Source: a virus
UHGV virus genome: UHGV-0218015
Length of the DNA stretch: 64,000 nucleotides
Direction: 5' to 3' (one strand)
Position numbers and translations under genes: made by a program. Positions 10,224-51,935 of this stretch are shown piece by piece. Position 1 is the stretch's first letter. Each line of letters starts with the position of its first letter. The notes under the pieces are model-generated. The model ran no database searches. It was not told where the DNA came from and was given only the letters and a program-made list of their open reading frames with translations.

Positions 10224-10867
10224 TGTTGATACCCGAGCCGAGACTTCCAGATAAGATGGTAAGAATCGCGGCAATAGACCCCGGTACGAGCCATCTTGGT
10301 ATGGCAGTATTGGATTGGGAATACGGCAGCGATCAAGCCGAAGTGGTTTGGGCTGATACCATGCATGTATTAGACCCAACGCATCCAAATGCGTTCGCAG
10401 AGTGTGTCGGTAAACGTGACGATCGTTTAGTTAAGCTCGAAGCTTGTTACCGTGAATTTCTTCGGATTGCCTGCCCAACTTTCGTTGCAACTGAGACACC
10501 GTTCATGCGGAGAGCAAAACTCTCCGCTTATGAATCTGGCGTCGAACTACAATTAATGTTGCGACGTACTTTGTGGGATATTTACCCGGAGAAAATTTTA
10601 CACGGCTTCAATCCTATCATTGTAAAATCATTCGTTGGGGTGGAGGCGAAGGGGACGGATAAAACCGATATGTTTCGGGCCGTGACCAAGCTCTACCATG
10701 ATCATGCTTTGTTTGATATTACAACGTTAGATGAGCACAGCATTGATGCTGTGGCGGTGGGAAATATTTTCGTCAGGGTAAATCTGTTAAACTTAAACAG
10801 CTTGCTACCGCCTAAACAAAAGTCGACTAAGACCTCCAGGCGGAGAAGGCGTCGGAGAAAACGTTAA
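10223..10867 (+). CDS. putative RuvC-like Holliday junction resolvase (RNase H fold) with poly-Arg C-terminus
   Basis: RIAAIDPGTSHLGMAV matches the RuvC N-terminal catalytic Asp motif (IDPG); internal ATE and C-terminal DEHSIDAVAVG motifs; tail SRRRRRRRKR. Confidence 0.5.
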   Translation: MLIPEPRLPDKMVRIAAIDPGTSHLGMAVLDWEYGSDQAEVVWADTMHVLDPTHPNAFAECVGKRDDRLVKLEACYREFLRIACPTFVATETPFMRRAKLSAYESGVELQLMLRRTLWDIYPEKILHGFNPIIVKSFVGVEAKGTDKTDMFRAVTKLYHDHALFDITTLDEHSIDAVAVGNIFVRVNLLNLNSLLPPKQKSTKTSRRRRRRRKR

Positions 10868-11445
10868 TGGAACCAAGCACACAAGCACTACCCACTGAAA
10901 TACTTGACTTGCTGATTCAAGCTGGAAACAAAAAGTTAAGTAAAGAACAATCTGAACAGTTAACGAAACTCTTGAAAGCGGCGTATGGGGATGAAGTCGA
11001 TGTTGACGTTACCCGTTCGGGAACAAAGATTCTTTCCGACTTACGACCGACGTTAATTGATAATTTAGGCAAACTATCAGAACAATTCCATCAGCAGGCA
11101 ACTGATGCTGTGGAATCTCTCGGGGATGAGGTTAGTAAAGAAACCATGCTAACCTTATGGCCGAAATTAGCCGCTTCCCAGAAGTTCATTATTGCCATTC
11201 TGACGTTGGCGACGGTTATTGTAACGGGGTTCCTGGGTTACGACACACATCAGCATTTTCCAGAAGACAGTCTAGATGTTCTGATTGTGACGTTGGTACC
11301 GTTCTTTGCATTGGTTGTTTTTGCGACTTGGCCGATTAAAACGTTGGCTTATAAGTCTCTTGAGATAGCCACAAAAGTTGTTGAGAAGAAGCTTGAGAAA
11401 TCAGGCCAGCTTAAGTCGAAGACAGAAAGCCCAACAACGAAATAA
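10867..11445 (+). CDS. putative membrane protein (192 aa)
   Basis: Two hydrophobic segments (FIIAILTLATVIVTGFLGY, LIVTLVPFFALVVFATW). Confidence 0.5.
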   Translation: MEPSTQALPTEILDLLIQAGNKKLSKEQSEQLTKLLKAAYGDEVDVDVTRSGTKILSDLRPTLIDNLGKLSEQFHQQATDAVESLGDEVSKETMLTLWPKLAASQKFIIAILTLATVIVTGFLGYDTHQHFPEDSLDVLIVTLVPFFALVVFATWPIKTLAYKSLEIATKVVEKKLEKSGQLKSKTESPTTK

Positions 11446-11526: not shown

Positions 11527-12189
11527 GTGTTAATTGTGGAACCGTTACGCTTAATGACCAGAACGTTGCTGATACCTATTCAGGAGCTGAAGGTTGGACC
11601 GTTGGTCGCCTCTAATGGGGAAATTGTTGATTTCGTTAAAGACGAAAAAATTGTTACGACCGCTTTTCAAGAGACGGTCCATCGCTATTATCGTGCAGTG
11701 CCTTTATCCGGCAGTTTAGATTGTCCGGGTGTGGAGGGGAGTACGTCTGCGTTAATAGCGGAGCACTTAGAAAAGAAAGGGTTTGGGGTTGGGAAGGGAC
11801 AGGTTTTTGTAGACGCTGTCGAATTGAACGAGTATCAGAACGACCTAAGACTTCAGATAAGGAGATTACTCACCCGCTATGGTATTTTCTCGATTAATTG
11901 TAAGTTTGACGACGTTCGGATGTTAGACCACGGTTTTACTACCGCCCTTAAAATCTGTCGCGGTAAAAGATTCATTCAGTTTGTTTGGTGGGTGCCGACC
12001 CTACGTGGTGAGAGAAAAACGGTGGAAGGGTTGTACGGTTGGGCTTTATGGAGCGAAGTTCCAGTAACGAAACTCGATGCAATTATTCCACAACATCGAA
12101 ACGTCCCACTTAGCAGTTTATTTACTTCTGGTGGGAACACCACGTGGGATGAATTTGTTAAAAATGTTTTATCGATAGGGGAACAATAA
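11527..12189 (+). CDS. hypothetical protein (about 217-220 aa; likely GTG start at 11536 after AAGGAG)
   Basis: ORF after terminator; AAGGAG at 11517-11522. Confidence 0.45.
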   Translation: MLIVEPLRLMTRTLLIPIQELKVGPLVASNGEIVDFVKDEKIVTTAFQETVHRYYRAVPLSGSLDCPGVEGSTSALIAEHLEKKGFGVGKGQVFVDAVELNEYQNDLRLQIRRLLTRYGIFSINCKFDDVRMLDHGFTTALKICRGKRFIQFVWWVPTLRGERKTVEGLYGWALWSEVPVTKLDAIIPQHRNVPLSSLFTSGGNTTWDEFVKNVLSIGEQ

Positions 12190-12665
12190 TGCAACCGTTA
12201 AATATTACCGAAGACAAAATCTCTGCTAAATTTCCTGAATTGTGCGAATATGTGAAAGACTTAAATTCGATTCGTGAAACGCCGGTTAGAATCACTTTGG
12301 CCGTTGAAGACGATATTACACATGGGGTTGCAATCTGGGAACCGGGGAATCTTATTTATCTGGTGGTGGCCGAGGGTTCTCGTCGCAGTGGTGTAGGTTC
12401 CTTTTTACTGAAATATGTTCAACTCAATTCAGATCGTCAAATGGTGATGTGTCGTGTTCATCCCTCAAACATCGACGGTCTATGTTTCTTTTCCAAAAAA
12501 GGCTTCCAAATAGACCGATGGTTTATTGCCAGTGACTCCCGTCGGTATTTTCGTATGACGAACAGTAACATTGATTCGTCATACACCCCGCCAGAAGAAG
12601 GATATTTGGTGGATTTTATTGAAAACACCCCCATCTTTCTCTCTGTTGCGGATAAGATTTATTAG
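12189..12665 (+). CDS. hypothetical protein, possible GNAT-like acetyltransferase (158 aa)
   Basis: Segment VVAEGSRRSGVGSFLL resembles the GNAT motif A acetyl-CoA loop (R-x-x-G-x-G); weak. Confidence 0.35.
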   Translation: MQPLNITEDKISAKFPELCEYVKDLNSIRETPVRITLAVEDDITHGVAIWEPGNLIYLVVAEGSRRSGVGSFLLKYVQLNSDRQMVMCRVHPSNIDGLCFFSKKGFQIDRWFIASDSRRYFRMTNSNIDSSYTPPEEGYLVDFIENTPIFLSVADKIY

Positions 12666-14302: not shown

Positions 14303-14851
14303 ATGTATAAAATCGCTATTATTGGTTCTCGAGAAACGCCCGAAGACACGATGCAAGAAATGTTGGACGTGTTGCAACGCGGGTTCAAAATTCTTCGTAA
14401 TAAACAGCACAAAATCGAAACCCGTTCGGGTGGTTGTTATAAAGGGCCAGACCAATTACAGTTTATGTTAGCGCGTACTGAACCAGGTCCACATATTTGC
14501 TATTTGCCCGACGATCGTAAGTTGTGGTTACGTAAGTTACATCCGAATGTTGACTTTCGCGTTATCCCTCAAGACATTCGTTATCGTGGGATTGTGGCAT
14601 CGCTTCACCCTAATCCCGATAAGCTATCGGATATAGCTTGGGCTTTGCATGGACGAAACTTAAATATTGTATCCGGTGACGCTTTAGACAACCCCGTAGA
14701 TGCGGTCTATTATTACGCTGAACACGATAAAAAGGGAAATCCAAAAGGTGGTACAGCAATGGGTGTCCGCTATGCGCAGTCACTGAACATCCCTTGCTAT
14801 TATCATGTTACGGATGCATCTAAGTGGTTAGAAGACCTACGCTTATTATGA
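14303..14851 (+). CDS. hypothetical protein (182 aa), possible Rossmann-like SLOG/DprA-type domain
   Basis: N-terminal KIAIIGSRETP resembles the GSR nucleotide-binding loop of DprA/SLOG folds; weak. Confidence 0.35.
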   Translation: MYKIAIIGSRETPEDTMQEMLDVLQRGFKILRNKQHKIETRSGGCYKGPDQLQFMLARTEPGPHICYLPDDRKLWLRKLHPNVDFRVIPQDIRYRGIVASLHPNPDKLSDIAWALHGRNLNIVSGDALDNPVDAVYYYAEHDKKGNPKGGTAMGVRYAQSLNIPCYYHVTDASKWLEDLRLL

Positions 14852-14901: not shown

Positions 14902-16035
14902 ATGTCAACATTAGATTCCGATTTAGAAGTCCTTTGCGATGACTACGATCGATTGGTCGCGTTAGAGTCGCTTAATGTTAAAGACAATTATCCGGCGATT
15001 GTCGCTATCCGAAAACGGTGGGTTTTAGACGATGTGCAGGTTGCGCTAGAGTCTGCAGCGATGATGGAACGCGCGCAATTTGTTGCGGACACTGAGCCTT
15101 ACGCAGGAGTAGGTAAAGCGGTCGCACGCGCGACCGGCAGAGCGGTTAAAGGGGCTAGTCGTGTTGCTGGAAAGGCAGCGGTAGCGGGGGCTAAGGCAAC
15201 TGGAAACTTCGCAGGTAAGCATTCTAAGCAACTTGCGTTACGTTTTGTCGACTTCGCGGAAGCCGCCGGTAAAGAAGTCATAAAGGAATTAAAAGAAGCG
15301 ACGTCTAAAGCGACGACTTTAGAACGCAAACTGCAAAAGTTAACCGCAAAGCTAAGTTTACTCGGCATCAAGGACACGTTAAAGCCTGTCGACTGCGACA
15401 CGGGAAGTTGGACAACCAAAGTTTGTTTAGAAGACAAGCCTAACGTAAAAGCATGTATTGAATTCAGTAAGAACCTGAGCGCAATGGATGCGATGGTCAA
15501 CGAGTATACCGTTAAAACACGCACTATTATCGGTAAGAGCAAGAAAGTTACCGAGAGCGGTTTGGAGAAAGTGGGTCGGTCGACGAACTGGGCGATTAAA
15601 CGAAGCGCAGGACTGTTCGGTATTATTGATCCGTTTAAAACGGTGAAAGCGTATCCGTGGCCTGGTAACGTGGTGGTCGTTGAACACGACAACGGTAAGA
15701 TTGAGTGGGCGATTGCCCGCGATGGTGATTTTGGCCACACAATCAAATCTCTGAACTTGCACGAAATCGGTTCAGCTCTAGACGCTGTTAGAAACATTAT
15801 CCGAGCGTTACGTCAGCGTGGTACGAAACGACGTAGTGTTGGTTATACCGGTATTTACGATGAAGTTCAGCGAATGAAAAAAGAGCTGAAATCGTTAGAT
15901 GGCCGTGAGTTACGCGATGCTACTGTCCGGTATAAAAACGCGCTGCGTTTAGAAGATGCCTTTACTACTTCGTTGGTGCGTGTTGCGGAGGGCTTACTGG
16001 AATGGTGCAGGTTGTCGCTGATTGAGGTTAAATAA
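14902..16035 (+). CDS. hypothetical protein (377 aa) with Ala/Lys/Gly-rich segment
   Basis: Long ORF; GGTAAAGGATG context. Confidence 0.5.
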   Translation: MSTLDSDLEVLCDDYDRLVALESLNVKDNYPAIVAIRKRWVLDDVQVALESAAMMERAQFVADTEPYAGVGKAVARATGRAVKGASRVAGKAAVAGAKATGNFAGKHSKQLALRFVDFAEAAGKEVIKELKEATSKATTLERKLQKLTAKLSLLGIKDTLKPVDCDTGSWTTKVCLEDKPNVKACIEFSKNLSAMDAMVNEYTVKTRTIIGKSKKVTESGLEKVGRSTNWAIKRSAGLFGIIDPFKTVKAYPWPGNVVVVEHDNGKIEWAIARDGDFGHTIKSLNLHEIGSALDAVRNIIRALRQRGTKRRSVGYTGIYDEVQRMKKELKSLDGRELRDATVRYKNALRLEDAFTTSLVRVAEGLLEWCRLSLIEVK

Positions 16036-16502
16036 TGCGTATTACTATTATTCTCAAACCCGACAGTAAATACGGAAAGTTATACGGCGACCAGGTACTC
16101 AAACTGCACAACATGCTGTTCGCAGAAGAGAAAGTGCGTATTAGTCAGTTAACCGGACGTGACACGTTCAACCCCATCGAACGTTTAGAAGAGATTTGGC
16201 CTCAAGATTATCTCTGTGCGTGTGCGGTGGACGACAACGAACAGCTTCTGGGATTTATGACGTTCTCAATGGGTTCTTGCTCAAAGGACACGTTTGTTTA
16301 CATCGGGAATTACTATGTGGTTCCTGAAGCACGCTCTCAAGGGGTAGGCCGTGCGCTTATGGACAAAGTCCGTGAATACGGAAAGTCCAAAGGCTGTGGT
16401 TGGATGAGTCTGGATGTGTTAGACAACAACGTTAAAGCTATCTCCTTGTATGAGAAGATGGGATTCCGTACCGAATGCAGGGAAATGATAAAGGAAATCT
16501 AA
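16035..16502 (+). CDS. GNAT family N-acetyltransferase (155 aa)
   Basis: VVPEARSQGVGRALM (motif A R/Q-x-x-G-x-G/A) and LYEKMGF (motif B) typical of GNAT. Confidence 0.6.
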   Translation: MRITIILKPDSKYGKLYGDQVLKLHNMLFAEEKVRISQLTGRDTFNPIERLEEIWPQDYLCACAVDDNEQLLGFMTFSMGSCSKDTFVYIGNYYVVPEARSQGVGRALMDKVREYGKSKGCGWMSLDVLDNNVKAISLYEKMGFRTECREMIKEI

Positions 16503-18779: not shown

Positions 18780-18816
18780 GGTACCACCCAACGGTGGTAC
18801 CTATATTTTATTTTTT
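18780..18816 (+). terminator. rho-independent terminator
   Basis: Stem GGTACCACC / CAAC / GGTGGTACC followed by TATATTTTATTTTTT. Confidence 0.8.
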
Positions 18817-18860
18817 CTCAGATATATATTACTTAGGTGAGAGTTACAATTAACTCTTTA
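18815..18860 (+). promoter_or_regulatory. conserved phage promoter-like motif with downstream hairpin (copy 1)
   Basis: TTTTCTCAGATATATATTACTTAGGTGAGAG followed by hairpin GAGAGTTA-CAAT-TAACTCTT; near-identical motif at 37886 and 42258. Confidence 0.55.
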
Positions 18861-18891: not shown

Positions 18892-19251
18892 GTGGCTTAC
18901 AATCACAATTCCATCGTTCTGGCAAAACGTAAATTTGGCCTTCATTTGTCTTACGTAGTTTGTCATTTGACCACGAAAGACATTACCCAGCGTGAGCTTG
19001 CCCAGCTTGCGAAAGTTTCACAACCCGTTATCTCATCTATTAAGAACGAACGCGTAGAACGTTTAAGCTTGCCGATTATGATGAAAGTTGCTGATGCGAT
19101 TCGTCTGAAATATCAGATTAGTTTTAATTCCGTTAAGGGTCGTTGCTCAGTAACCGTTCACGTAGAGTCCGCATTGGACTACGTTGCAAACACGTCCATT
19201 AAACGTACCAAGAAGAATGTGCGTTTTATCACTAACACTGTAACACACTAA
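18892..19251 (+). CDS. helix-turn-helix (XRE/Cro-like) transcriptional regulator (119 aa), GTG start
   Basis: ITQRELAQLAKVSQPVISSIKN matches the HTH_XRE pattern; GGAGTATTACC-GTG RBS context. Confidence 0.5.
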   Translation: MAYNHNSIVLAKRKFGLHLSYVVCHLTTKDITQRELAQLAKVSQPVISSIKNERVERLSLPIMMKVADAIRLKYQISFNSVKGRCSVTVHVESALDYVANTSIKRTKKNVRFITNTVTH

Positions 19252-19272: not shown

Positions 19273-19929
19273 ATGGCACCGAAAACTAAAGAAACTGTAA
19301 AGAACGAGACTAAAGCCAACGAAGTTCAACCGGCTGCGAAGGTTGAACTTTTACCCTGCGTTAATGAAATAATTGGGGTGAAATTCTTAACTTTTAATCC
19401 GTATACTGACCTGGTTTTCGATTTTTATCAAGACCAGCCTTTCAACTTATTCACACTTGTCTGCACTTATAATGGCGACATTTTGGCGGTTGCGCCTGGC
19501 CTTAATAGAGACAAGTTACTTACAGGTACGGTTATTACTGAAATTCTCCTGCGGTTAATGCATAAGTTTGAAGGGCCTGAACTTGACAAAATCGGTGTTA
19601 AGTTAGCTGACCTACTAGTCAATGCTGCCGACTGGTTGAGTTTTAACCCTTCTATCTATTTCCATTTCAATACAAATATTCTTCACGCCGTAACAGACGA
19701 TGGTAAAAAGTATCGCATCTTAATTAAGGGTGGGGTGCAACAACCTTTGTTCTCTAGACAAAACTGCCATATTAAGTTTTCGCCTGACTTGGTAGAAGTT
19801 TACGGCCAGCGAGTAGCGACTGGCCACTACGAGGTCCATCTCAGATTTTTCAATTACCTGTATGAAAAATTAGGGAAAGCTGGCATGACACCCAATCTTG
19901 CTTTCACAAGCTCTGCCCCTTTTGCGTGA
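19273..19929 (+). CDS. hypothetical protein (218 aa)
   Basis: GAAGGAGTAATATC-ATG RBS; ORF followed by terminator. Confidence 0.5.
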   Translation: MAPKTKETVKNETKANEVQPAAKVELLPCVNEIIGVKFLTFNPYTDLVFDFYQDQPFNLFTLVCTYNGDILAVAPGLNRDKLLTGTVITEILLRLMHKFEGPELDKIGVKLADLLVNAADWLSFNPSIYFHFNTNILHAVTDDGKKYRILIKGGVQQPLFSRQNCHIKFSPDLVEVYGQRVATGHYEVHLRFFNYLYEKLGKAGMTPNLAFTSSAPFA

Positions 19930-19941
19930 TGTTTAATAATT

Positions 19942-19975
19942 GGGGAACTTCGGTTCCCCTTTCTTTTTTGTTTTT
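19942..19975 (+). terminator. rho-independent terminator
   Basis: Stem GGGGAAC / TTCG / GTTCCCC followed by TTTCTTTTTTGTTTTT. Confidence 0.8.
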
Positions 19976-20023: not shown

Positions 20024-21022
20024 ATGGCTTTTAGGAAGACTATAGAACGTACCGCCACGGATTTAACAGTAGGTCGGTTAGCACGTAGAGATATTCGCAA
20101 CCCTCAACTTCAGGCTTGTTTATCTGGCCCTAACGGTGCGGTGATTCGTGAGGCGTTGTGCAATAGTGAACTGAATACGTTCTCTTTACAAAAAGGAAAA
20201 ACAATTCAAGGGTTTATCATCACAAAACACATTTACGGCGATCCAACGTTACACTGCTTGTATATGCATGAAATTGTACCAGGTTGTTTGAACAAACTGA
20301 ACCTACTACTGGTACTCGACTACACCGGTTTTACGTATCTTAATCGAATCGCCAGTGGTGTAGAAGAAATCTCTGAGCTTAATGACTTAGGATTTAGACA
20401 CACCCACACCACATACCGTTTAGGTACACGCTCGTTATTGGATATCGCTCTACCAACGAACGTGAAGAACATCTCTGGTGATTTTTATAAAGAGTTAACC
20501 GCTGCACAACGAGAACAGCTTATGTTGCTTTTAGGCGCGAGCGTAGTTGAAAACATCAACGCTGACCCTGTGGGCCGCTCACGACAAATCATGCCACAAG
20601 TCGAAACGTTGGTGGAGTTAGTACGTCACGTCAACCACCACACCTATGTTTGGATGGACGGCAACGATGTTGTGGGCGTGGTGCAAGTTAAATTGCGTAA
20701 TCTTAACGAGTGTGAATTAAAAGCCATTGCGGTAAGTGAAACACATCGGGGGCGTGGTATCGGACGGACTTTGTTATACCGTGCTCTGCAGATTGCATCG
20801 ACAACAGCGGCACCATTGGAGATAGGGTGTTTCAATAACAACCCTGCATTTAGACACCTGGTCGTCGAATTATTTAAATTTCGGTCCTACGAGTACGAAT
20901 TTGTTTTAGTGCGCGACGATGACGTCGTCAGTTGGGAGCGTCGGAAAAATCGTGTCGAGCTGGTGTTAGGCGACGAAGTATCATCGTTACAAGGCGGATA
21001 TAATGCGGAAACCAATTATTAA
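20024..21022 (+). CDS. protein with C-terminal GNAT acetyltransferase domain (332 aa)
   Basis: C-terminal IAVSETHRGRGIGRTLLYRAL (GNAT motif A); AAGGAGTAATTAAC-ATG RBS. Confidence 0.5.
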   Translation: MAFRKTIERTATDLTVGRLARRDIRNPQLQACLSGPNGAVIREALCNSELNTFSLQKGKTIQGFIITKHIYGDPTLHCLYMHEIVPGCLNKLNLLLVLDYTGFTYLNRIASGVEEISELNDLGFRHTHTTYRLGTRSLLDIALPTNVKNISGDFYKELTAAQREQLMLLLGASVVENINADPVGRSRQIMPQVETLVELVRHVNHHTYVWMDGNDVVGVVQVKLRNLNECELKAIAVSETHRGRGIGRTLLYRALQIASTTAAPLEIGCFNNNPAFRHLVVELFKFRSYEYEFVLVRDDDVVSWERRKNRVELVLGDEVSSLQGGYNAETNY

Positions 21023-21818
21023 GTGGATGGGTGGGAAAACACGTGTTTTAGGGGAATTACAAAAGGTCTTGCCTAAACGTACAACCTTTGTAGAACCGTT
21101 TGTGGGTGCAGGGTCTGTTTTCCTAAATACGAATTACAGCCGGTATATTTTATCGGATTCTAACCCTGATTTGATACGCTTACTTTGTGTTGCGCGTGAA
21201 CAGCCTGAAGAACTGATCGCTGCGTCGCAGCCGTTGTTCTTAGACGGTAATACTACTGTAAAGTATATGGAGCGTCGTGAGCTGTTTAATAGCGGTAAAT
21301 CGATGTCAGAAGTTGAGCGTGCTGCGATGTTTTTATACTTAATGCGTCACGGTTATAACGGTATGTGTCGCTATAACAGTAGCGGTGGGTTCAATGTTCC
21401 GTTTGGACGTTACCCGAATGGGGTTTATTATCCATTAGAAGAAATTCGTGACTGGGCTAAACGTTGTGCGGAAGTTGATTATCTGGAAATTGTTTGTGAG
21501 GACTTTCGTTCTGTATTAGCACGGACACCTGAGGATGCTGTGATTTATGCTGATCCTCCGTATATTCCGTTATCGGATACTGCGAAACATGCGCAATACC
21601 ACCGTAAAGAATTCTCACAAACGGATCATCGTGAATTGGCCAAGTTACTACAGCAGCAGGTGGAACGTGGCAACAGTGTCGTGTTGTCAAATGCAGACAC
21701 CCTACTCACCCGAGAAATTTATTACGGTTTTGAGTGGCGCAGTATTGAGGTTGGTCGCTATATGGGTGCGTCTGGCGCTACTCGGAAAACGGTGACTGAA
21801 TTACTGGGAGTGCTCTAA
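21003..21818 (+). CDS. dam: DNA adenine methyltransferase (Dam family, GATC N6-adenine MTase)
   Basis: KWMGGK, EPFVGAGSVFLNT (SAM-binding FxGxG), YNGMCRYN, NVPFGRY and DPPY catalytic motif, collinear with E. coli/T4 Dam. Confidence 0.9.
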   Translation: MRKPIIKWMGGKTRVLGELQKVLPKRTTFVEPFVGAGSVFLNTNYSRYILSDSNPDLIRLLCVAREQPEELIAASQPLFLDGNTTVKYMERRELFNSGKSMSEVERAAMFLYLMRHGYNGMCRYNSSGGFNVPFGRYPNGVYYPLEEIRDWAKRCAEVDYLEIVCEDFRSVLARTPEDAVIYADPPYIPLSDTAKHAQYHRKEFSQTDHRELAKLLQQQVERGNSVVLSNADTLLTREIYYGFEWRSIEVGRYMGASGATRKTVTELLGVL

Positions 21819-22591
21819 TGCGTATAGTGGATATTGACGATTATCGTAATGACCATTTAGCAATTGGTGTGGGTGGTAGAATAGTTTCGCTAACCCGTCT
21901 ACGAAAAGGGTTGATAGAAAAAGACATCATTCGCGAATCTGAAGATCCGACCTTTATCATTCTTTCGAACACGAATCAGCTGCAATGTGTCTTCTCCGGT
22001 CGCGCCGATGGTAAGATTTTCTACATGTCGGCAATCGTTGTGTTTGCGAAGAAGAAAATTAATTTCGCACAACTCAAACGTTTGTTAAATGTAGAGGTGT
22101 TTGATGTCACATACCCTGCCAATGACCTAAAACGTCGCGATCAGTTAATGGCGTTCTTGCGTATGCAGCCGTCGTTCATCGATTATGAGCTGACGTTTAC
22201 TGAAAAACCTGAAGTTCGCACCGATTTGCCTGATGTAGATGATATTGAATCTCTAACGTTAGAAGAAACGTTTACGATCACTAAGGTGGTTAATGTCAGC
22301 TTGGATACGCGCTGCCTGGAATTGTTAGCGATTGGTGCAGCAGAAGGTTTGTGCTGCCGTAAAGATGGTAAAGTTGAAGGTATCTTAGTCTATTCGAAAA
22401 TCAACGAAAAGACGTTTGCCACCGAAGGTTTCTTCTATAACGATTGTACTTACGGGAATGCGCTCTTGACCACGTACTACCGTATTGCGTATTTAAAGGG
22501 CGCAACCGTGCGTCTTACTTTTCCATATTCAGCACCTCCATCGATGCCTGGTGTTGAGGCAGAAGCATTAACTGGTCATTTTATCTTTTAA
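21818..22591 (+). CDS. hypothetical protein (257 aa)
   Basis: ATG overlaps dam stop (ATGA coupling). Confidence 0.5.
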   Translation: MRIVDIDDYRNDHLAIGVGGRIVSLTRLRKGLIEKDIIRESEDPTFIILSNTNQLQCVFSGRADGKIFYMSAIVVFAKKKINFAQLKRLLNVEVFDVTYPANDLKRRDQLMAFLRMQPSFIDYELTFTEKPEVRTDLPDVDDIESLTLEETFTITKVVNVSLDTRCLELLAIGAAEGLCCRKDGKVEGILVYSKINEKTFATEGFFYNDCTYGNALLTTYYRIAYLKGATVRLTFPYSAPPSMPGVEAEALTGHFIF

Positions 22592-22600
22592 GGACATTGA

Positions 22601-22828
22601 ATGGAAATCAAACGTATTGTAACCAAAGACAAAAAGATTGCTTATGTTGCAGGTGATAACGAGTTCTCGGCGGTTATTAATGCTGAGAACGTGCTGATTA
22701 TCGGTTATCCAGGTAAAGATATTACTCGCAGTCATCAACGTGTGATTGACAAACTTATCGCCAAAGCAAAAGCGCGTGATGGTGTTGGTTCAGCACAAAC
22801 CCATACCGGGTTAACGTTGGTACTCTAG
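22601..22828 (+). CDS. hypothetical protein (75 aa)
   Basis: Short ORF in array. Confidence 0.4.
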   Translation: MEIKRIVTKDKKIAYVAGDNEFSAVINAENVLIIGYPGKDITRSHQRVIDKLIAKAKARDGVGSAQTHTGLTLVL

Positions 22829-22866
22829 CCAGCAGGTAATATGACCTCTTAACTGGAGACTTAGAG

Positions 22867-23373
22867 ATGAAAGAGACTCTGGATTTTAATCAGCTGGAGC
22901 AGCACGATTTTGATCTCGGTGTTCGCGACTTAGAAGCTGACTACGAAACACGTTGTAAAGAATTCTTTAATCGCTACGGGCAATTGATTACCGGGGCATC
23001 TGAAGACACAGAATTCTCGTTAGACGATTTCGAAAAGATTCTGTCTTGCTTTATCACAGACAGCTTAGCGAAACAGGCATTGCTGGTAGAACAGAACCTG
23101 CAAATGGTGGAGCCTACAGATGCTCACGCTGTGCTAAAAGAATCCATTATTCCGAACGACGAAATTATGGATGCGGTAGCAGGTATTCGTGGTACGTTCG
23201 ACGCAGCCGTGGAAGACTATGCCGAACAGCTTCGTGAGTCTGGGCTAACGTTGTGTGCGCCTGCGGGCGAACAGTTACCTTCTGAAGAAGAAACGGAAGA
23301 AGCACGTAATCGCTTAGCGCGTTATGTGATTACTTCTGTGTTAGTAGACGATCGCGAAGAAAACGTACTGTAA
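22867..23373 (+). CDS. hypothetical acidic protein (168 aa)
   Basis: ORF followed by terminator 23379-23416. Confidence 0.5.
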   Translation: MKETLDFNQLEQHDFDLGVRDLEADYETRCKEFFNRYGQLITGASEDTEFSLDDFEKILSCFITDSLAKQALLVEQNLQMVEPTDAHAVLKESIIPNDEIMDAVAGIRGTFDAAVEDYAEQLRESGLTLCAPAGEQLPSEEETEEARNRLARYVITSVLVDDREENVL

Positions 23374-23378
23374 ACCTT

Positions 23379-23416
23379 CCCTCTCTCCGTTTGGAGAGAG
23401 GGAGTATTTATTTTTA
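23379..23416 (+). terminator. rho-independent terminator
   Basis: Stem CCCTCTCTCC / GTTT / GGAGAGAGGG followed by AGTATTTATTTTT. Confidence 0.8.
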
Positions 23417-29318: not shown

Positions 29319-32300
29319 ATGGCTAAAGCGGTAAAGAAAATACGTTTACACGACTTACATCCGTACACCGGGGATATCGGTGAAGGCGTTTTACTTTTTT
29401 CGAAAGACGAAAAAGATTATAAGTTACCAGTCCGCGAGATCGTTGCGGACATTGACACCGTCAGAAGTGCGGTTGCTGATGCACAAACGGCTGCGGCCAA
29501 ATCACAACAGTCCGCAACAGAAGCTACGAAAGCTAAAGATTTAGCAGAAACAGCGAAGCAACAGACCACCACTTTAGCTTCCACAGTTAATGAGCAAGCG
29601 GGAACCGTCGCCACTAAAACTGCGGAGGTTAACAAAAAACACGCTGAAGTTTTAGCAGCGAAAACTGCCGTAGATACTGTTTCACAATCAGTAAATGAGA
29701 AGGCTCAAGCTGTCGCCGCAAGCGAACAATCTGTGACAGCTGTAGCGGCTGATGTAACTAAGAAAGCAGAAACGGTTACGCAACGGGCCGGACAGGTTCA
29801 ACAGACCGCTACCAGTATCGCAAATACTGCGGCTTCAATTGAGGCCAGTAAGGGCGCGGTGGAGAAGGTTGCTGCGCAGGTTACGAAAGATAAAGAAAGC
29901 TCAGAAGGCGCAGCTACACGCTCGGAGTCAGCCGCTCTGCGTGCGGAGAAAATCGCTGCACAGGGTTTAGTTGACGCTAGTACGACCGGTAAAGGTATCG
30001 TTAAACTTAACAATACCCTGACTAGCGAATCCGTGACGGAGGCTGCCACACCGTCCACGGTTAAACAGCTGAACGACGAATTACAGTTAAAAGCCGATAA
30101 ACATTCGCCGAATTTTACGGGTAACCCGACATCACCAACGCCTCCAAAGGACTCGAATGACACGAGCATCTCCACAACGGCCTGGGTGCGTGCTGCTATC
30201 GCGGAATTGGTTGGTTCTTCACCTGAGACGTTAGATACCTTAGCGGAATTAGCTACGGCGTTAGGTAATGACCCTAACTTCGCAACAACGATTACTGAGA
30301 AACTTGCACAGAAGCAACCTATCAGTCCACTACTTACTGCTATTGCCGCAGTCACAACCGCAGCAAACAAGCTCCCTTATTTCACTGGCACTAATAAAGT
30401 CGGGTTAACTGACTTTACAGAAACCGCCAGAACCTTGTTAGCAAAAGGGACAACTGCGGATATCATCAATTTCTTGGGATTAAAAGCCACTGTAGATAAA
30501 GCGAACTCTGCGTTACAGAAAAACTCTAACGGTGCTGATATCCCCAATAAAGAAACCTTTGCTCGCAATATTGGTCTATCTCCTGATACCTATCTGCGTT
30601 TCCGTGGTGAAATGCCCGCAGATGCTGATATTAACACATTTGCTCCAGATGCCAATTACACAGGAACATGGTCCAAGTCGACATCAACAAACGCATCGAT
30701 AGCAAAACACTTCCCGGAAGACGGTGCGGTAGGTTATCTAGAAGTGTATAAAGCGGGCAACTACAGTGGAGCGCAACGTTTTACCTGCCGTAATGGTAAC
30801 GTGTACAACCGCATGTTGTCAGCCGCGTGGAACGGAACTAATGGCCCGTGGTCACCGTGGAGAATGGTAACTACAGGTGTACGCCCGTTATCTACATCGA
30901 TCGATCTGAACTCCTTAGGCGGCGCTGAGCACATGGGTAACTGGCGTAACTCGTCCAGTTCGTTAGCGGTGTTCGACAGACATTATCCTGAAGAGGGCGG
31001 TAATGCGCAAGGCGTATTAGAAGTCATGGAAGGCGGTCTTTATGGACGTTTACAACGTTACACCACTCGTCGTGGTACGATGTATGTCCGTGGTTTGACT
31101 GCGACTTGGGATTCGTCTAATCCGCAGTGGGAAGATTGGATTCAGGTTGGGTATCAGGTAGACGGTGCCTACTATAAGGGTAGCTTTAACGACTTAACTA
31201 AACCGGGTCGCTTTAGTGTTACCGGCGAGGCTACAGACGGTCCGTTAACAGACTCTGCTGGCGCAACCTTGCTAGGCGTTTGCGAAGTTACCTTACGCTT
31301 AGACGGTTCAGGTGTTGAACAAAATTATACCACATACGGTACAGGCGCAACTTCGAAAGGTCGCAAGTTCCAACGAATTCGTACAGGAAATGCCTGGAGC
31401 GAATGGCGAGAGATTTTCACATCCTATTCACTCCCGTTGGCTTTAGGGATCGGTGGGGTTGCTGCTAAGGTAGATCCGTTAGACTGGCAAACCTTCGACT
31501 TCGTTCCTGGCCAGATGATAAGTACACCATTGAATACCATGAAAAACATTCCTGCGGGAATGGATTGGGGTGTTATCGACGGTAACTTGGTTACTATTCT
31601 TGTAGGGGCGTCGGAGGACACCGGTACTGGCCGGAGTATGTTGGTCTGGCGTGGTACAGTGTCTACTGCTAACTATCGCTTCTTTGCTGTTCGCGTCGCT
31701 GGTGAAAAGGGTAAACGTACTATTACTAGCCGCCAGATGCCCGTATTGAATGCAGCGCATACGTGGGCAGAAAAACAGACCTTTGCAAAAGGGTTATCAG
31801 GTGAGTTAACAGGCAATGCTGCTACGGCAACGAAACTGAAAACAGCCCGTTTAATCGGCGGTGTAAGTTTCGACGGTAGCGGAGACATTAGCCTCCCTGG
31901 TGTAAACCAACAGGGTAATCAAAACACCTCTGGGAACGCGGGAACCGCAACCAAATTACAAACGGCTCGAAACATCAACGGTGTGAAATTTGATGGGTCT
32001 AGAGACATCAATATCAACACGTTGGTAGGACGTGGACGTGTTACTGCACTGACTGGATCAAACAAAGGTACACCCGGTATTCAGATGTACGAAGTTTACA
32101 ATAACGGTTATCCAACCGCTTATGGTAACTTACTGCATTTGGGCGGTTCTGCTGCGCTAGGCGAAGGGGAACTGTTAATCGGATGGTCGGGGACGAGCGG
32201 TGCGCACGCACCCGTTTATATTCGTAGTCGACGTGATACTGCTGATGCGCCGTGGTCAGATTGGGCACAAGTTTATACTGCCCGTGATAGCATTCCTGGT

Positions 32301-37845: not shown

Positions 37846-37889
37846 ACCGTAGGATGGACTTAGTCCATCCTACGGTTTTTATATTTTTT
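37846..37889 (+). terminator. rho-independent terminator
   Basis: Long palindromic stem CCGTAGGATGGAC...GTCCATCCTACGG followed by TTTTTATATTTTTT. Confidence 0.85.
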
Positions 37890-37936
37890 CTCAGATATAT
37901 ATTACCTAGGAGAGAGTGAAATTTACGTTCACTCCA
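37886..37936 (+). promoter_or_regulatory. conserved phage promoter-like motif with downstream hairpin (copy 2)
   Basis: TTTTCTCAGATATATATTACCTAGGAGAGAG followed by hairpin GAGTGAA-ATTTACG-TTCACTC (stem differs from copy 1 but pairing is preserved). Confidence 0.55.
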
Positions 37937-42257: not shown

Positions 42258-42310
42258 ATATTTTCAGATATATATTACCTAGGTGAGAGTTCAGTTACTC
42301 TCACTTAACG
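42258..42310 (+). promoter_or_regulatory. conserved phage promoter-like motif with downstream hairpin (copy 3)
   Basis: ATTTTCAGATATATATTACCTAGGTGAGAG followed by hairpin GTGAGAG-TTCAGTTA-CTCTCAC, then CTTAACG. Confidence 0.55.
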
Positions 42311-51387: not shown

Positions 51388-51935
51388 TCATCTTCTCCTT
51401 TAACTAAACCTAGCTCAATTAACAATTCAAAATCGATTTGGCGAAATTTGTTATCAAAACCAGAATCCCAATCGATGTGTAATCCTTGTCGTTCTTCATC
51501 GGTAAGTTCAGGATAAATTAAATCATGGAACGCTTCACGTTCCTCGTAAAATCCATCGATAGTAGAATCTGGATTCCGCATTGCGTAAATCGTGATGCCC
51601 GGAAAGGATAATCCTAATGCTGTTATAGATTCGACGCTTGGTTCTTGCAAGGCCCTGCGTAATAGCACGATTTTATGTCGTGGAAAATCTAGTACACGTT
51701 GTTCAAACCCAGGATTCCGTTTCTCAATTTCTGTAACTGAAAGATCGGTGAGTTCTGTGCAATACATTGGGATAACTACAGTTACTCCGTGGCGAATTAA
51801 TAATCGTTTAACATCGTCAGTGAAGTCTTCACCATTAATTTGCACATAACAACCAAACAATTTTGTAGTTTCTAAAAATTTTTCCAGAAAACGGAATTTA
51901 CGCTTCGTAATATTGTGGATCAGAATTGGCTTCAT
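51363..51935 (-). CDS. hypothetical protein (190 aa) in rSAM/Cys-rich operon
   Basis: - strand ORF overlapping the SPASM rSAM gene end by 38 nt. Confidence 0.5.
   Translation of the reverse strand: MKPILIHNITKRKFRFLEKFLETTKLFGCYVQINGEDFTDDVKRLLIRHGVTVVIPMYCTELTDLSVTEIEKRNPGFEQRVLDFPRHKIVLLRRALQEPSVESITALGLSFPGITIYAMRNPDSTIDGFYEEREAFHDLIYPELTDEERQGLHIDWDSGFDNKFRQIDFELLIELGLVKGEDECLLLTKA

What the first reader, a model, noticed from the sequence alone, without database searches (positions are those of the whole stretch)
20024..21818. Dam methyltransferase overlapping a GNAT-domain gene
A high-confidence Dam homolog (21003..21818) overlaps by 20 nt the end of a 332-aa protein whose C-terminus is a GNAT acetyltransferase. 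Two more GNAT-like genes lie at 16035..16502 and 12189..12665. Phage Dam enzymes protect against GATC-directed restriction, and multiple acetyltransferases in an early region suggest host-takeover or anti-defence roles.
Basis: partly seen in the sequence, partly recalled or inferred. Interest (0 to 1): 0.35.

Follow-up and report, generated by a model that had tools for sequence, protein, structure and literature searches.

The report
Jumbo-phage Dam flanked by double-GNAT genes
This is the already-annotated acetyltransferase–Dam methylase gene module of SPN3US-like giant phages of enteric bacteria; it is ordinary, apart from a hidden second acetyltransferase-like domain and the fact that these Dam-carrying phages still avoid the Dam target site GATC.

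Summary
ORFs 20024..21022 (332 aa) and 21003..21818 (271 aa) exist and overlap by 20 nt. The second is an EcoDam-like GATC N6-adenine methyltransferase. The genes at 16035..16502 and 12189..12665 are GNATs.

The window is a distant relative of Salmonella phage SPN3US. All four genes are syntenic orthologs of SPN3US gp104, gp105, gp95 and gp88, which GenBank and RefSeq already annotate this way.

New details:
- The 332-aa protein is a tandem GNAT. Its N-terminal GNAT-like domain lacks the cofactor motif; its C-terminal domain keeps it.
- The gene coupled to Dam's stop codon (21818..22591) is a degenerate paralog of that tandem GNAT.
- The 155-aa GNAT is orthologous to phage enzymes shown to form N-acetylspermidine.
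- SPN3US gp88 has a solved structure (PDB 7DQG).

The "early region" claim is not supported. An early-type promoter element lies 1.2 kb upstream, but a conserved terminator separates it from the module, which has no such element of its own. Erskineviruses keep Dam without the GNAT, so the two are not obligately linked. The 20-nt overlap is ordinary.

The one real oddity is that GATC is the most depleted tetranucleotide here (O/E 0.62), and it is more depleted still in relatives. Interest is low.

The parts
20024..21022 (+). Tandem (double) GNAT protein, 332 aa; ortholog of SPN3US gp104
   Evidence: ORF. Pfam GNAT at residues 198-278 and whole-length phrog_8663 at 6e-47. AF2 model pLDDT 78.6, pTM 0.73, shows the GNAT topology twice. 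Foldseek top hits are all full-length tandem GNATs: VipF, CBG, MAB_4324, MshD. About 31% identical to SPN3US gp104 at the syntenic position.
20063..20422 (+). N-terminal GNAT-like domain (residues ~14-133) lacking the acetyl-CoA P-loop motif; probably non-catalytic
   Evidence: Secondary structure E-H-H-H-E-E-E-H-E-H-E. The beta4-alpha3 loop reads IVPGCLN, with no R/QxxGxG/A (sequence). No Pfam hit. Only 5 clusters among 1.84 billion representatives match this domain.
20462..20911 (+). C-terminal GNAT domain (residues ~147-296)
   Evidence: Pfam Acetyltransf_1, _7 and _10. The family profile's best PDB sequence hit is the VipF C-terminal domain, 1.4e-7.
20747..20764 (+). GNAT motif A, the acetyl-CoA pyrophosphate-binding loop R242-G-R-G-I-G247
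   Evidence: Read from the translation and alignment A1. G247 is invariant. Position 4 is R in two Erwinia-phage orthologs.
20991..20998 (+). Shine-Dalgarno-like AAGGCGGA for Dam, inside the GNAT coding sequence
   Evidence: Sequence read; it lies 4 nt before the ATG at 21003.
21003..21022 (+). 20-nt overlap of the GNAT 3' end with the Dam 5' end
   Evidence: The GNAT tail it encodes (residues 316-332) is predicted disordered. The overlap is 8 nt in the E. coli episome relative, because the GNAT stop codon sits at a different place.
21003..21818 (+). Orphan EcoDam-like DNA N6-adenine methyltransferase, predicted GATC-specific; ortholog of SPN3US gp105
   Evidence: Pfam PF02086 at 2.7e-57. TIGR00571 at 254.5 bits, above the 114.85 cutoff. 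E. coli Dam 2G1P at 9e-66, aligned colinearly over residues 3-269. The best PADLOC model is an orphan methyltransferase, 2.3e-86. 67-72% identical to the Dam of SPN3US, Asesino and phiEaH2.
21099..21116 (+). SAM-binding motif I (FVGAGS, residues 33-38)
21552..21563 (+). Catalytic motif IV (DPPY, residues 184-187)
21818..22591 (+). 257-aa gene whose start shares one base with Dam's stop; divergent, cofactor-motif-degenerate paralog of the tandem GNAT; ortholog of SPN3US gp106
   Evidence: ORF. phrog_9941, no Pfam hit. 24% identical to SPN3US gp106. hhalign against the tandem-GNAT family gives probability 84-93% over 175-209 colinear columns, scores 46.8 and 55.7, against shuffled nulls of 14-16 +/- 2.7 with a maximum of 25. 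AF2 failed at pLDDT 33, so the fold is unconfirmed.
22601..23373 (+). Two small genes of unknown function (75 and 168 aa) that complete the apparent operon
   Evidence: ORFs. No Pfam or PADLOC hits. The same order is seen in SPN3US and in the E. coli episome relative.
23377..23404 (+). Strong terminator-like hairpin (12 pairs) with a T-run; probable end of the operon
19942..19969 (+). Terminator-like hairpin GGGGAAC-TTCG-GTTCCCC followed by TTTCTTTTTT, between the upstream operon and the GNAT
   Evidence: SPN3US has an equivalent hairpin between gp103 and gp104 (L001 7904-7927).
18813..18844 (+). phiKZ-type early (virion RNA polymerase) promoter-like element TTTCTCAGATATATATTACTTAGGTGAGAG, upstream of the HTH gene
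   Evidence: The exact 15-mer occurs 3 times in the window, within a conserved ~30-nt block. The same 15-mer precedes the SPN3US HTH gene. It matches the published consensus TATATTAC (PMC7058600; PMC7598289).
18892..19929 (+). Upstream two-gene unit: an XRE/HTH protein (18892..19251) and a 218-aa hypothetical (19273..19929); orthologs of SPN3US gp101 and gp103
16035..16502 (+). Single-domain 155-aa GNAT; ortholog of SPN3US gp95 and phiEaH2 YP_007237670; candidate spermidine/polyamine N-acetyltransferase
   Evidence: Pfam E 2.6e-19. phrog_3810 at 1.6e-44. 49.7% identical to phiEaH2, 45.2% to Caitlin and 47.7% to SPN3US, at the syntenic position after the internal head protein. The phiEaH2 and Caitlin proteins made N-acetylspermidine in E. 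coli lacking speG, and the SPN3US protein did not (PMC9992855). The best PDB hits are diamine and polyamine acetyltransferases.
12189..12665 (+). Single-domain 158-aa GNAT-like protein; ortholog of SPN3US gp88, whose structure is solved (PDB 7DQG)
   Evidence: phrog_7861 at 1.3e-69. Pfam is below its cutoff. PDB 7DQG matches at E 1e-62, and 7DQG is 100% identical to SPN3US gp88. The motif A-like RRSGVGSFLL is present.

Best explanation
The finding is the conserved gp104-gp105-gp106 module of SPN3US-like giant phages of Enterobacterales. SPN3US itself encodes the nuclear-shell protein chimallin. A distant member of this lineage carries the module here; closer relatives occur as ~222-kb episomes in E. 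coli and Enterobacter assemblies.

Three tightly packed genes sit behind a terminator and are probably co-transcribed and translationally coupled.

1. A tandem GNAT. The N-terminal GNAT-like domain has lost the acetyl-CoA loop and most likely serves substrate binding or scaffolding. The C-terminal domain keeps the R-x-x-G-x-G loop and most likely transfers an acetyl or acyl group to an unknown amine substrate.
2. An orphan EcoDam-like methyltransferase that methylates N6 of adenine in GATC.
3. A degenerate tandem-GNAT-like paralog that is probably non-catalytic.

The most likely role of Dam is to keep the fast-replicating phage DNA fully methylated at its few remaining GATC sites. That would stop the DNA being cut as unmethylated or hemimethylated GATC, either by MutH-type nicking or by DpnII/MboI-type restriction. 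The clade-wide depletion of GATC would be a second layer of the same avoidance.

GNAT and Dam are neighbours by conserved gene order, not demonstrably partners. The other two GNATs are separate conserved genes, and one belongs to a family with demonstrated spermidine N-acetyltransferase members.

Shown: gene identities, folds, motifs, synteny, GATC depletion and the promoter/terminator layout. Inferred: enzymatic activity, substrates, expression timing and biological role.
For: Dam identity and GATC-contact residues:
- establish the family; the residue roles come from PMC4417163.

Tandem GNAT:
- The AF2 model has pLDDT 78.6 with two GNAT topologies.
- Foldseek returns full-length tandem GNATs at E ~1e-13.
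- The family profile hits the VipF C-terminal domain.
- Motif A is present only in the C-terminal domain.

Paralogy of the downstream gene:
- hhalign probability 84-93%, with scores about 11-15 sd above shuffled controls.

Synteny and conservation:
- Gene-for-gene correspondence with SPN3US.
- The GNAT-Dam adjacency recurs in Seoulvirus, Machinavirus and Wellingtonvirus, and in the E. coli episome relative.

Operon boundaries:
- Terminators lie at 19942 and 23377, with the upstream one conserved in SPN3US.
- The genes overlap by 20 nt and by 1 nt.

GATC depletion:
- 171 sites observed against 274 expected, z -8.3, rank 1 of 256 tetranucleotides.
- A synonymous-codon shuffle expects 222 +/- 11, z -4.7.
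- O/E is 0.18-0.40 in six loci from relatives.
- Counter-selection of GATC in enterobacteriophages through MutH is documented (PMC5014478, citing McClelland 1984 and Deschavanne & Radman 1991).

Small GNATs:
-.
Against: - No methylation, acetylation or expression data exist for this phage or for SPN3US gp104-gp106; the literature searches found nothing.
- If Dam protected GATC sites fully, strong GATC avoidance would not be expected.
- SPN3US encodes a nuclear-shell protein, chimallin (PMC9365700). In related phages that shell excludes host nucleases, which weakens the self-protection argument.
- The expected catalytic Tyr position in the GNAT alpha4 region is V here, and F or Y in orthologs. 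Motif A is degenerate in two Erwinia-phage orthologs. Some family members may therefore be inactive.
- AF2 could not confirm the fold of the downstream paralog.
- Foldseek TM-scores for the tandem GNAT are only 0.45-0.5, because the orientation between the two domains differs.
Confidence: 0.6

Rival explanations
1. The GNATs and Dam are early host-takeover or anti-defence genes: Dam shields phage DNA from GATC-directed restriction, and the acetyltransferases modify host proteins (for example RNA polymerase or ribosomal proteins, as with phiKMV Rac) at the start of infection.
For: - An early-type promoter element lies 1.2 kb upstream on the same strand. Read-through of the 19942 hairpin cannot be excluded.
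- Reviews propose Rac-like roles for jumbo-phage GNATs (PMC7824862; PMC13282480).
- The closest structural analog, VipF, is a secreted effector of Legionella.
Against: - No early motif lies directly upstream of the GNAT, and a terminator conserved in SPN3US intervenes.
- The neighbourhood contains an internal head protein and other non-early functions.
- No PADLOC or anti-defence signal was found.
- The only tested orthologs of any of these GNATs act on spermidine, not on host proteins.
- GATC avoidance argues that methylation alone is not relied on.
Confidence: 0.2
2. Dam has a regulatory or packaging role rather than a protective one. With GATC reduced to a small set of sites, methylation state at particular sites would time replication, transcription or packaging, as at the P1 pac site or the Mu mom promoter. 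Alternatively it keeps phage DNA invisible to SeqA and MutH.
For: - GATC is the most depleted tetranucleotide, yet 171 sites remain.
- Dam is kept across the clade, even where the GNAT is lost.
- A nuclear shell would reduce the need for anti-restriction.
Against: - The remaining GATC sites are not concentrated in intergenic or regulatory DNA: 7 of 171 lie in 4640 non-coding bases, where about 12 would be expected by density.
- No GATC cluster sits near the early-promoter elements or the terminators examined.
- The idea is purely inferential.
Confidence: 0.12
3. The tandem GNAT, and its paralog after Dam, are non-enzymatic. They would be GNAT-fold scaffolds or binding proteins, much as chimallin has a catalytically dead GNAT-like domain.
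For: - The N-terminal domain and the whole downstream paralog lack the cofactor loop.
- Motif A position 4 and the alpha4 Tyr position vary among orthologs.
- The family evolves fast and is restricted to this clade.
- Chimallin's C-terminal domain is a dead GNAT fold (PMC9365700).
Against: - The window protein and most orthologs keep an intact R-x-x-G-x-G loop, and N273 is invariant.
- Pfam GNAT scores are well above the cutoff.
Confidence: 0.15
4. GNAT and Dam act together on DNA. In a Mom-like scheme, the GNAT would acylate adenine N6 or another base, and Dam would mark or regulate the target.
For: - The two genes are tightly coupled, and the adjacency is conserved in several genera.
- GNAT-superfamily DNA modifiers exist in other jumbo phages (PMC7824862).
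Against: - No Pfam hit to Mom or to any DNA-modifying GNAT family at E <= 0.1.
- Erskineviruses keep Dam without the GNAT.
- The structural neighbours act on small molecules or proteins.
Confidence: 0.03

Closest known systems
Salmonella phage SPN3US gp104 (putative GCN5-related N-acetyltransferase), gp105 (putative DNA adenine methylase) and gp106 (hypothetical)
   Same: Same gene order, orientation and surrounding genes: DprA-like, internal head protein, small GNAT, thymidylate kinase, HTH, then this module. The same early-promoter 15-mer precedes the HTH gene and the same terminator precedes the GNAT. Dam is 67% identical.
   Different: The tandem GNAT is only ~31% identical and the gp106-like gene ~24%. 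The window lacks the second paralog, gp107. GNAT and Dam overlap here, whereas SPN3US has a 13-30 nt gap. GATC depletion is milder here (O/E 0.62 against 0.40).
E. coli Dam (PDB 2G1P) and the Dam family TIGR00571
   Same: Colinear alignment over the full length at about 43% identity. FxGxG and DPPY are present, and so are the DNA-contact residues K9, Y119, N120, R124, P134 and Y138.
   Different: L122 is M. The score is below NCBI's enterobacterial Dam equivalog cutoff (258 against 441 bits). The gene is phage-borne and sits in a GATC-depleted genome.
Tandem-GNAT proteins: Legionella VipF, M. tuberculosis MshD, clavulanate-pathway CBG (ORF14), M. abscessus MAB_4324
   Same: Two GNAT folds in one chain of ~300-330 residues, with full-length Foldseek matches at E 1e-13 to 1e-9. 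The C-terminal domain carries the cofactor loop, and the best sequence hit is the VipF C-terminal domain.
   Different: 10-15% identity. TM-scores of only 0.45-0.5, because the domains are oriented differently. The N-terminal domain has no detectable sequence relatives outside this phage clade. The substrate is unknown.
Phage spermidine N-acetyltransferases of Erwinia phages phiEaH2 (YP_007237670) and Caitlin (YP_009292176)
   Same: The window's 155-aa GNAT (16035..16502) is 45-50% identical over its full length and sits at the same position after the internal head protein. Those proteins produced N-acetylspermidine in E. coli lacking speG (PMC9992855).
   Different: The equally similar SPN3US ortholog (47.7%) was inactive in the same assay, so activity cannot be transferred by homology. 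This gene is not part of the GNAT-Dam operon.
T4, T2 and P1 phage Dam methyltransferases
   Same: Phage-encoded orphan GATC adenine methylases in phages of Dam-positive enteric hosts. The classical explanation is protection and full methylation of rapidly replicating DNA (established knowledge).
   Different: The sequence is much closer to cellular EcoDam (E 9e-66) than to T4 Dam (E 1e-10). In this clade the enzyme coexists with strong GATC avoidance.

Membership tests
Dam family N6-adenine DNA methyltransferase (Pfam PF02086, NCBIfam TIGR00571) | Score above the curated family cutoffs | tested here: met
   PF02086 at 194.8 bits against 22. TIGR00571 at 254.5 against 114.85. The narrower enterobacterial equivalog NF008152 is not reached (258.5 against 441).
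Dam family N6-adenine DNA methyltransferase (Pfam PF02086, NCBIfam TIGR00571) | SAM-binding motif I (FxGxG) and catalytic motif IV (DPPY), in alpha-class order | tested here: met
   FVGAGS at residues 33-38 and DPPY at 184-187, colinear with EcoDam.
Dam family N6-adenine DNA methyltransferase (Pfam PF02086, NCBIfam TIGR00571) | GATC-reading residues of EcoDam: K9, Y119, N120, L122, R124, P134, Y138 | tested here: met
   K7, Y118, N119, M121, R123, P133 and Y137 in the alignment, with one conservative change (L to M). Residue roles are from PMC4417163.
Dam family N6-adenine DNA methylransferase (Pfam PF02086, NCBIfam TIGR00571) | Actual N6-methylation of adenine in GATC | not testable with these tools
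   Needs DpnI, MboI and Sau3AI digests or m6A calling on virion DNA.
Orphan (solitary) methyltransferase, as opposed to a restriction-modification system | No cognate restriction endonuclease next to the methylase | tested here: inconclusive
   The best PADLOC model is an orphan methyltransferase (2.3e-86). The six neighbouring proteins have no PADLOC hit and no nuclease Pfam domain. A novel nuclease among the unknown small ORFs cannot be excluded.
GNAT (GCN5-related N-acetyltransferase) superfamily: 332-aa protein, C-terminal domain | Pfam score above cutoff, the GNAT fold, and the motif A loop Q/R-x-x-G-x-G/A | tested here: met
   Acetyltransf_1 at 47.5 bits against 20.7. The fold appears in the AF2 model. 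R242-G-R-G-I-G247 is present.
GNAT superfamily: 332-aa protein, N-terminal domain | GNAT fold | tested here: met
   AF2 secondary-structure order beta-alpha-alpha-beta-beta-beta-alpha-beta-alpha-beta over residues 14-133. Foldseek alignments of 300-347 columns to tandem GNATs cover both halves.
GNAT superfamily: 332-aa protein, N-terminal domain | Motif A cofactor loop | tested here: not met
   The loop after beta4 reads IVPGCLN, and no Pfam GNAT hit covers residues 1-190. It has the fold but is probably not an enzyme.
Tandem-GNAT architecture (MshD, VipF, CBG, Eis type) | Two GNAT folds in one polypeptide, matched over the full length to solved tandem GNATs | tested here: met
   Foldseek against PDB: 7wx7 and 6wqb (VipF) E 2.6e-13, 2wpw E 2.7e-13, 7q3a, 1ozp and 2c27, all at probability 1.00. 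TM-scores are a modest 0.43-0.51.
GNAT superfamily (all the GNAT genes) | Acyl-CoA-dependent acyl transfer to an amine | not testable with these tools
   Needs biochemistry.
Phage spermidine N-acetyltransferase (phiEaH2/Caitlin type): gene 16035..16502 | Orthology, meaning full-length similarity plus synteny, to the experimentally active proteins | tested here: met
   49.7% identical to phiEaH2 and 45.2% to Caitlin over 155 aa, in the same position after the internal head protein. Activity data are in PMC9992855.
Phage spermidine N-acetyltransferase (phiEaH2/Caitlin type): gene 16035..16502 | Formation of N-acetylspermidine | not testable with these tools
   The SPN3US ortholog, at 47.7% identity, was negative in the published assay, so activity is uncertain here.
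Mom-type DNA-modifying GNAT | Sequence match to the Mom family or other DNA-base acyltransferase families | tested here: not met
   No such Pfam or PHROG hit at E <= 0.1 or 0.01.
Early gene class of phiKZ-like phages (transcribed by the virion RNA polymerase) | Conserved AT-rich early-promoter element (TATATTAC type) directly upstream of the operon | tested here: not met
   The element occurs at 18818, 37891 and 42264 only. The 94-nt region between 19930 and 20023 holds a terminator hairpin and no such element. Read-through from 18818 remains possible.
Tandem-GNAT-like paralog: gene 21818..22591 | Homology to the gp104-type tandem GNAT family | tested here: met
   hhalign probability 83.8% (A1) and 92.9% (A2), scores 46.8 and 55.7, against shuffled controls of 14-16 +/- 2.7 with a maximum of 25.
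Tandem-GNAT-like paralog: gene 21818..22591 | GNAT fold confirmed by a structure model, and a cofactor loop | tested here: inconclusive
   AF2 gave pLDDT 33 with a shallow alignment. No conserved G-x-G/A appears at the aligned position across orthologs.

The most novel reading that the evidence does not exclude
In this clade of giant phages (SPN3US encodes the nuclear-shell protein chimallin), Dam does not shield the genome. The genomes have purged most GATC sites, yet every one keeps an EcoDam-like enzyme, and most place it between an active tandem GNAT and one or two dead tandem-GNAT paralogs. On this reading the module would be a dedicated epigenetic or chromatin-like system. Dam would mark the few retained GATC sites, or host DNA. 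The GNAT pair would acetylate, and its dead paralog bind, a DNA-associated protein or polyamine inside the phage compartment. The effect would be to control replication, packaging or mismatch-repair evasion.
Probability: 0.06. Interest if true: 0.6.

Novelty: new member of a known kind. Interest (0 to 1): 0.25.

Why it matters
The finding mostly matters as a correction, because the locus is a conserved and already annotated module of SPN3US-like giant phages rather than a new system.

Three points could still be useful to phage biologists.

1. The gp104 family is a tandem GNAT with a clade-specific pseudo-GNAT N-terminal domain. The gene after Dam is a dead paralog of it. That gives a structural hypothesis for two 'hypothetical' or half-annotated gene families.
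2. Every Dam-encoding relative examined strongly avoids GATC. This contradicts the simple reading that a phage Dam means its GATC sites are protected. It can be tested directly with methylation-sensitive digests and Dam knock-downs in a genetically tractable model, SPN3US.
3. The small GNAT links this phage to the recently described viral spermidine-acetylation enzymes.

Tried and rejected
- Megablast of the locus against GenBank phages found nothing. Protein-level searches were needed.
- The sigma-70 promoter scan showed no enrichment (23 found against 24.9 expected). This is irrelevant for a phage with its own RNA polymerases.
- I suspected a second upstream motif, TATWGTGAG, before several genes including the GNAT. 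It is not enriched (20 matches against 23.8 expected), so I dropped it.
- AF2 of the 257-aa downstream gene failed (pLDDT 33). Only near-identical homologs were eligible for the alignment, so I ran no fold search on it.
- Literature searches for SPN3US gp88, gp95, gp104 and gp105, and look-ups in the SPN3US proteome papers, gave nothing on these genes apart from the spermidine paper. No paper in the library cites PDB 7DQG in the relevant sense.
- PADLOC found no defence-system relation for any neighbour.
- Profile-sequence searches for further GNAT paralogs in the window found none. A weak hit to 10867..11445 (12-13 bits) was judged spurious, since that protein looks to be low-complexity and membrane-associated.
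- Direct BLASTP between the two halves of the 332-aa protein, and among the GNATs, shows no significant similarity. They are not recent duplicates.
- A Mom-like DNA-acylation role was considered and rejected for lack of any family match.
- I looked for GATC clustering in non-coding or regulatory DNA and found none (7 of 171 sites).


Full report
**1. The observation**

- The 332-aa product of 20024..21022 has a Pfam GNAT domain at residues 198-278 (Acetyltransf_1, E 2.5e-12, above the curated cutoff).
- The 271-aa product of 21003..21818 is a D12-class N6-adenine methyltransferase (E 2.7e-57). It passes NCBIfam's Dam-family model and aligns end to end with E. coli Dam (PDB 2G1P, E 9e-66).
- The GNAT frame ends with TAA at 21020-21022 and the Dam ATG is at 21003, so the overlap is 20 nt.

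An internal ATG at 21027 would remove the overlap, so I checked the Dam start. The 21003 start is preceded by AAGGCGGA plus 4 nt. It also encodes K7-W8, which align with K9-W10 of EcoDam. The same (I/L)(I/L)KWMGGK peptide is encoded upstream of the annotated starts in SPN3US and Asesino, whose RefSeq Dam starts therefore look truncated.

The overlap is real but unremarkable.
- 20 of 69 co-directional neighbour pairs in this window overlap, 7 of them by 8 nt or more.
- The overlap is 8 nt in a close relative, because the GNAT stop codon sits elsewhere.
- The overlapped GNAT tail (residues 316-332) is predicted to be disordered.

The gene at 16035..16502 is a strong GNAT. The gene at 12189..12665 is below Pfam's cutoff. 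It matches a PHROG 'acetyltransferase' family at 1e-69 and PDB 7DQG at 1e-62.

**2. What the window is**

There is no near-identical phage in GenBank. At protein level the locus is gene-for-gene syntenic with Salmonella phage SPN3US and the related Erwinia jumbo phages. The shared order is:
- DprA-like protein
- internal head protein
- 155-aa GNAT
- three or four unknown genes
- thymidylate kinase
- HTH protein
- one or two unknown genes
- 332-aa GNAT
- Dam
- unknown genes

The window's four genes correspond to SPN3US gp88, gp95, gp104 and gp105. GenBank already calls these putative acetyltransferases and a putative DNA adenine methylase.

Relatives at 81-82% nucleotide identity are deposited as ~222-kb circular 'plasmids' of E. 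coli strain 98232 and Enterobacter ludwigii. PGAP annotates the same pair there. Homologs also occur in E. coli and Shigella sonnei assemblies. The host range is therefore Enterobacterales. SPN3US encodes the nuclear-shell protein chimallin (PMC9365700).

**3. Dam**

Motif I (FVGAGS) and motif IV (DPPY) are present. The EcoDam residues that read GATC have the following roles according to PMC4417163:
- R124 contacts the guanine of the fourth base pair.
- Y119 intercalates.
- N120 makes a base hydrogen bond.
- L122 and P134 contact the inner base pairs.
- K9 and Y138 recognise the first base pair.

All are conserved here, as K7, Y118, N119, M121, R123, P133 and Y137. The only change is L to M. 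The enzyme is far closer to cellular Dam than to T4 Dam (E 1e-10). The best PADLOC model is an orphan methyltransferase, and none of the neighbours matches a defence or nuclease model. GATC specificity is thus well supported by sequence. Actual methylation is untested.

**4. The 332-aa protein is a tandem GNAT**

I built a nine-sequence family alignment and ran AlphaFold2 on it. The model has pLDDT 78.6 and pTM 0.73. The beta-alpha-alpha-beta-beta-beta-alpha-beta-alpha-beta GNAT topology appears twice, at residues ~14-133 and ~147-296.

Foldseek against the PDB returns only full-length tandem GNATs at the top:
- Legionella VipF
- the clavulanate-pathway tandem GNAT
- MAB_4324
- MshD
- a clostridial glucosamine N-acetyltransferase
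- Eis-like proteins

These hits have E 1e-13 to 1e-9 over 300-347 aligned columns. TM-scores are modest (0.43-0.51), which I attribute to domain orientation. The family profile's best PDB sequence hit is the VipF C-terminal domain.

Only the C-terminal domain carries the acetyl-CoA loop (R242-G-R-G-I-G247). The equivalent loop in the N-terminal domain is IVPGCLN. The N-terminal domain is nonetheless conserved within the family and is extremely restricted: an exhaustive HMMER scan of 1.84 billion representatives finds five clusters. In GenBank phages the family occurs only in 48 SPN3US-like records.

**5. The gene after Dam**

The start of 21818..22591 shares a base with Dam's stop codon. This gene stays next to Dam even in Asesino, where the tandem GNAT is absent. 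It is the ortholog of SPN3US gp106.

Profile-profile comparison aligns its family colinearly with the tandem-GNAT family:
- probability 84-93% over 175-209 columns;
- scores of 46.8 and 55.7, against column- and block-shuffled controls of 14-16 +/- 2.7 with a maximum of 25.

The cofactor loop is not conserved in this family. AlphaFold2 failed because only near-identical homologs were eligible for the alignment. I call it a probable degenerate tandem-GNAT paralog, with the fold unconfirmed.

**6. The other two GNATs**

The 155-aa protein is 49.7% identical to phiEaH2 YP_007237670 and 45.2% identical to the Caitlin protein, at the syntenic position. Both of those produced N-acetylspermidine in E. 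coli lacking speG. The SPN3US ortholog (47.7% identical to the window protein) did not (PMC9992855). Its best PDB sequence hits are diamine and polyamine acetyltransferases.

The 158-aa protein is the ortholog of SPN3US gp88, whose crystal structure is PDB 7DQG. I found no publication describing it.

**7. Is this an 'early region'?**

The exact 15-mer TCAGATATATATTAC occurs three times in the window, always on the + strand (18818, 37891, 42264). It lies inside a ~30-nt conserved block. It matches the published early (virion RNA polymerase) promoter consensus of phiKZ-group phages: TATATTAC for phiKZ, and TTTRARR_BTATATTACDWHDGTG for 201phi2-1 (PMC7058600; PMC7598289).

- The copy at 18818 precedes the HTH gene.
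- Between that two-gene unit and the GNAT lies a terminator-like hairpin with a T-run (19942-19969).
- SPN3US has the identical 15-mer before its HTH gene and a hairpin between gp103 and gp104.
- The GNAT-Dam unit has no early element of its own. It runs to a strong terminator at 23377.

Its temporal class cannot be read from sequence. Middle and late promoters of these phages have almost no consensus. The evidence does not support calling it early, although read-through remains possible.

**8.

- GATC is the most under-represented of all 256 tetranucleotides in the window: 171 observed against 273.9 expected under a maximal-order Markov model, z -8.3.
- It is also depleted against a synonymous-codon shuffle (222 +/- 11, z -4.7).
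- In the loci fetched from relatives, all of which encode this Dam, the depletion is stronger: O/E is 0.40 and 0.39 for SPN3US, 0.21 for Asesino, 0.21 for Parshik, 0.18 for pEa_SNUABM_11 and 0.30 for pEa_SNUABM_29.
- The remaining sites are not concentrated in non-coding DNA.

GATC avoidance in enterobacteriophages is long known. It has been attributed to MutH and mismatch-repair action on under-methylated phage DNA (PMC5014478, citing McClelland 1984 and Deschavanne & Radman 1991). Finding it together with a phage Dam is not what the simple 'Dam protects GATC' model predicts.

My preferred reading is a double safeguard: few sites, and fast complete methylation of those that remain. The data equally allow a regulatory role, or selection by methyl-dependent nucleases.

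**9. Linkage of GNAT and Dam**

The adjacency is conserved in Seoulvirus, Machinavirus and Wellingtonvirus, and in the E. coli episome relative. Asesino, phiEaH2 and Stratton keep Dam at 71-72% identity and have no tandem GNAT anywhere detectable. The two genes are therefore not obligate partners. No match to Mom-type DNA-modifying GNATs was found.

**10. Verdict**

The locus is a new, divergent member of a known, annotated module. The added value is:
- the tandem-GNAT architecture;
- the degenerate paralog after Dam;
- the link of the small GNAT to viral spermidine acetylation;
- the promoter and terminator layout;
- the clade-wide coexistence of Dam with GATC avoidance.

Interest is low to modest (0.25).

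Noticed in passing
Whole window; also loci L001-L006 (SPN3US, Asesino, Parshik, pEa_SNUABM_11, pEa_SNUABM_29): GATC is the most depleted tetranucleotide (171 observed against 274 expected, z -8.3; codon-shuffle z -4.7), even though the phage encodes a GATC Dam. Depletion is stronger still (O/E 0.18-0.40) in all Dam-carrying relatives sampled.
   Followed up: partly
window 18813-18844, 37886-37917, 42259-42290 (+ strand): Three copies of a ~30-nt element with an identical 15-mer core, TCAGATATATATTAC. It matches the phiKZ-group early (virion RNA polymerase) promoter consensus. The same 15-mer precedes the HTH gene in SPN3US.
   Followed up: yes
Whole window: TATG (z -6.8) and its reverse complement CATA (z -5.1) are among the most depleted tetranucleotides, and TATG is also low in relatives' loci. 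TATG is the only conserved core of phiKZ late promoters (PMC7598289), so this may reflect avoidance of spurious late starts.
   Followed up: no
Whole window: Against a synonymous-codon shuffle, ACGT is strongly over-represented (420 against 340, z +6.0) and AATT under-represented (380 against 482, z -6.9). CTAG is depleted, as is usual in enterics.
   Followed up: no
L007 (NZ_CP173450.1, E. coli strain 98232) and NZ_CP134650.1 (Enterobacter ludwigii): Relatives of this phage at 81-82% nucleotide identity are deposited as ~222-kb circular 'plasmids' in complete bacterial genomes. A homolog also sits in a Shigella sonnei assembly. These could be jumbo-phage episomes, a carrier state, or contaminating phage DNA.
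   Followed up: partly
L001 9019 (SPN3US gp105/ACQ60_gp161) and L002 9088 (Asesino gp121): The RefSeq Dam start codons look too far downstream. The ORFs stay open upstream and encode the conserved (I/L)LKWMGGK loop, including the DNA-contact Lys. In SPN3US a GTG start is available.
   Followed up: partly
window 21818-22591, compared with L001 9823-11448: SPN3US and the Erwinia phages have two successive ~265-aa genes after Dam (gp106 and gp107, both with a Y-x-R-x-G-F GNAT-motif-B-like signature). The window and its close relatives have only the gp106-type gene.
   Followed up: partly
window 12189-12665: The ortholog of this gene, SPN3US gp88, has a deposited crystal structure (PDB 7DQG, 'putative acetyltransferase'). 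No paper about it was found in the searchable library.
   Followed up: partly
window 51898-53220 (- strand): A 440-aa radical-SAM domain protein (phrog_1802, 6e-115) lies in the minus-strand block.
   Followed up: no
window 29319-33758 (+ strand): A 1479-aa tail-fibre protein matches more than 50 PHROG tail-fibre families in several repeated stretches, so it is a mosaic, repeat-rich receptor-binding protein. A GATC lies in its upstream intergenic region.
   Followed up: no
window 14303-14851 and 14902-16035: A DprA-like recombination-mediator protein (phrog_768, 1e-44) is followed by a phiKZ-type internal head protein (Pfam phiKZ_IP; phrog_2497, 2e-73). The small GNAT therefore abuts a virion-protein gene.
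   Followed up: no
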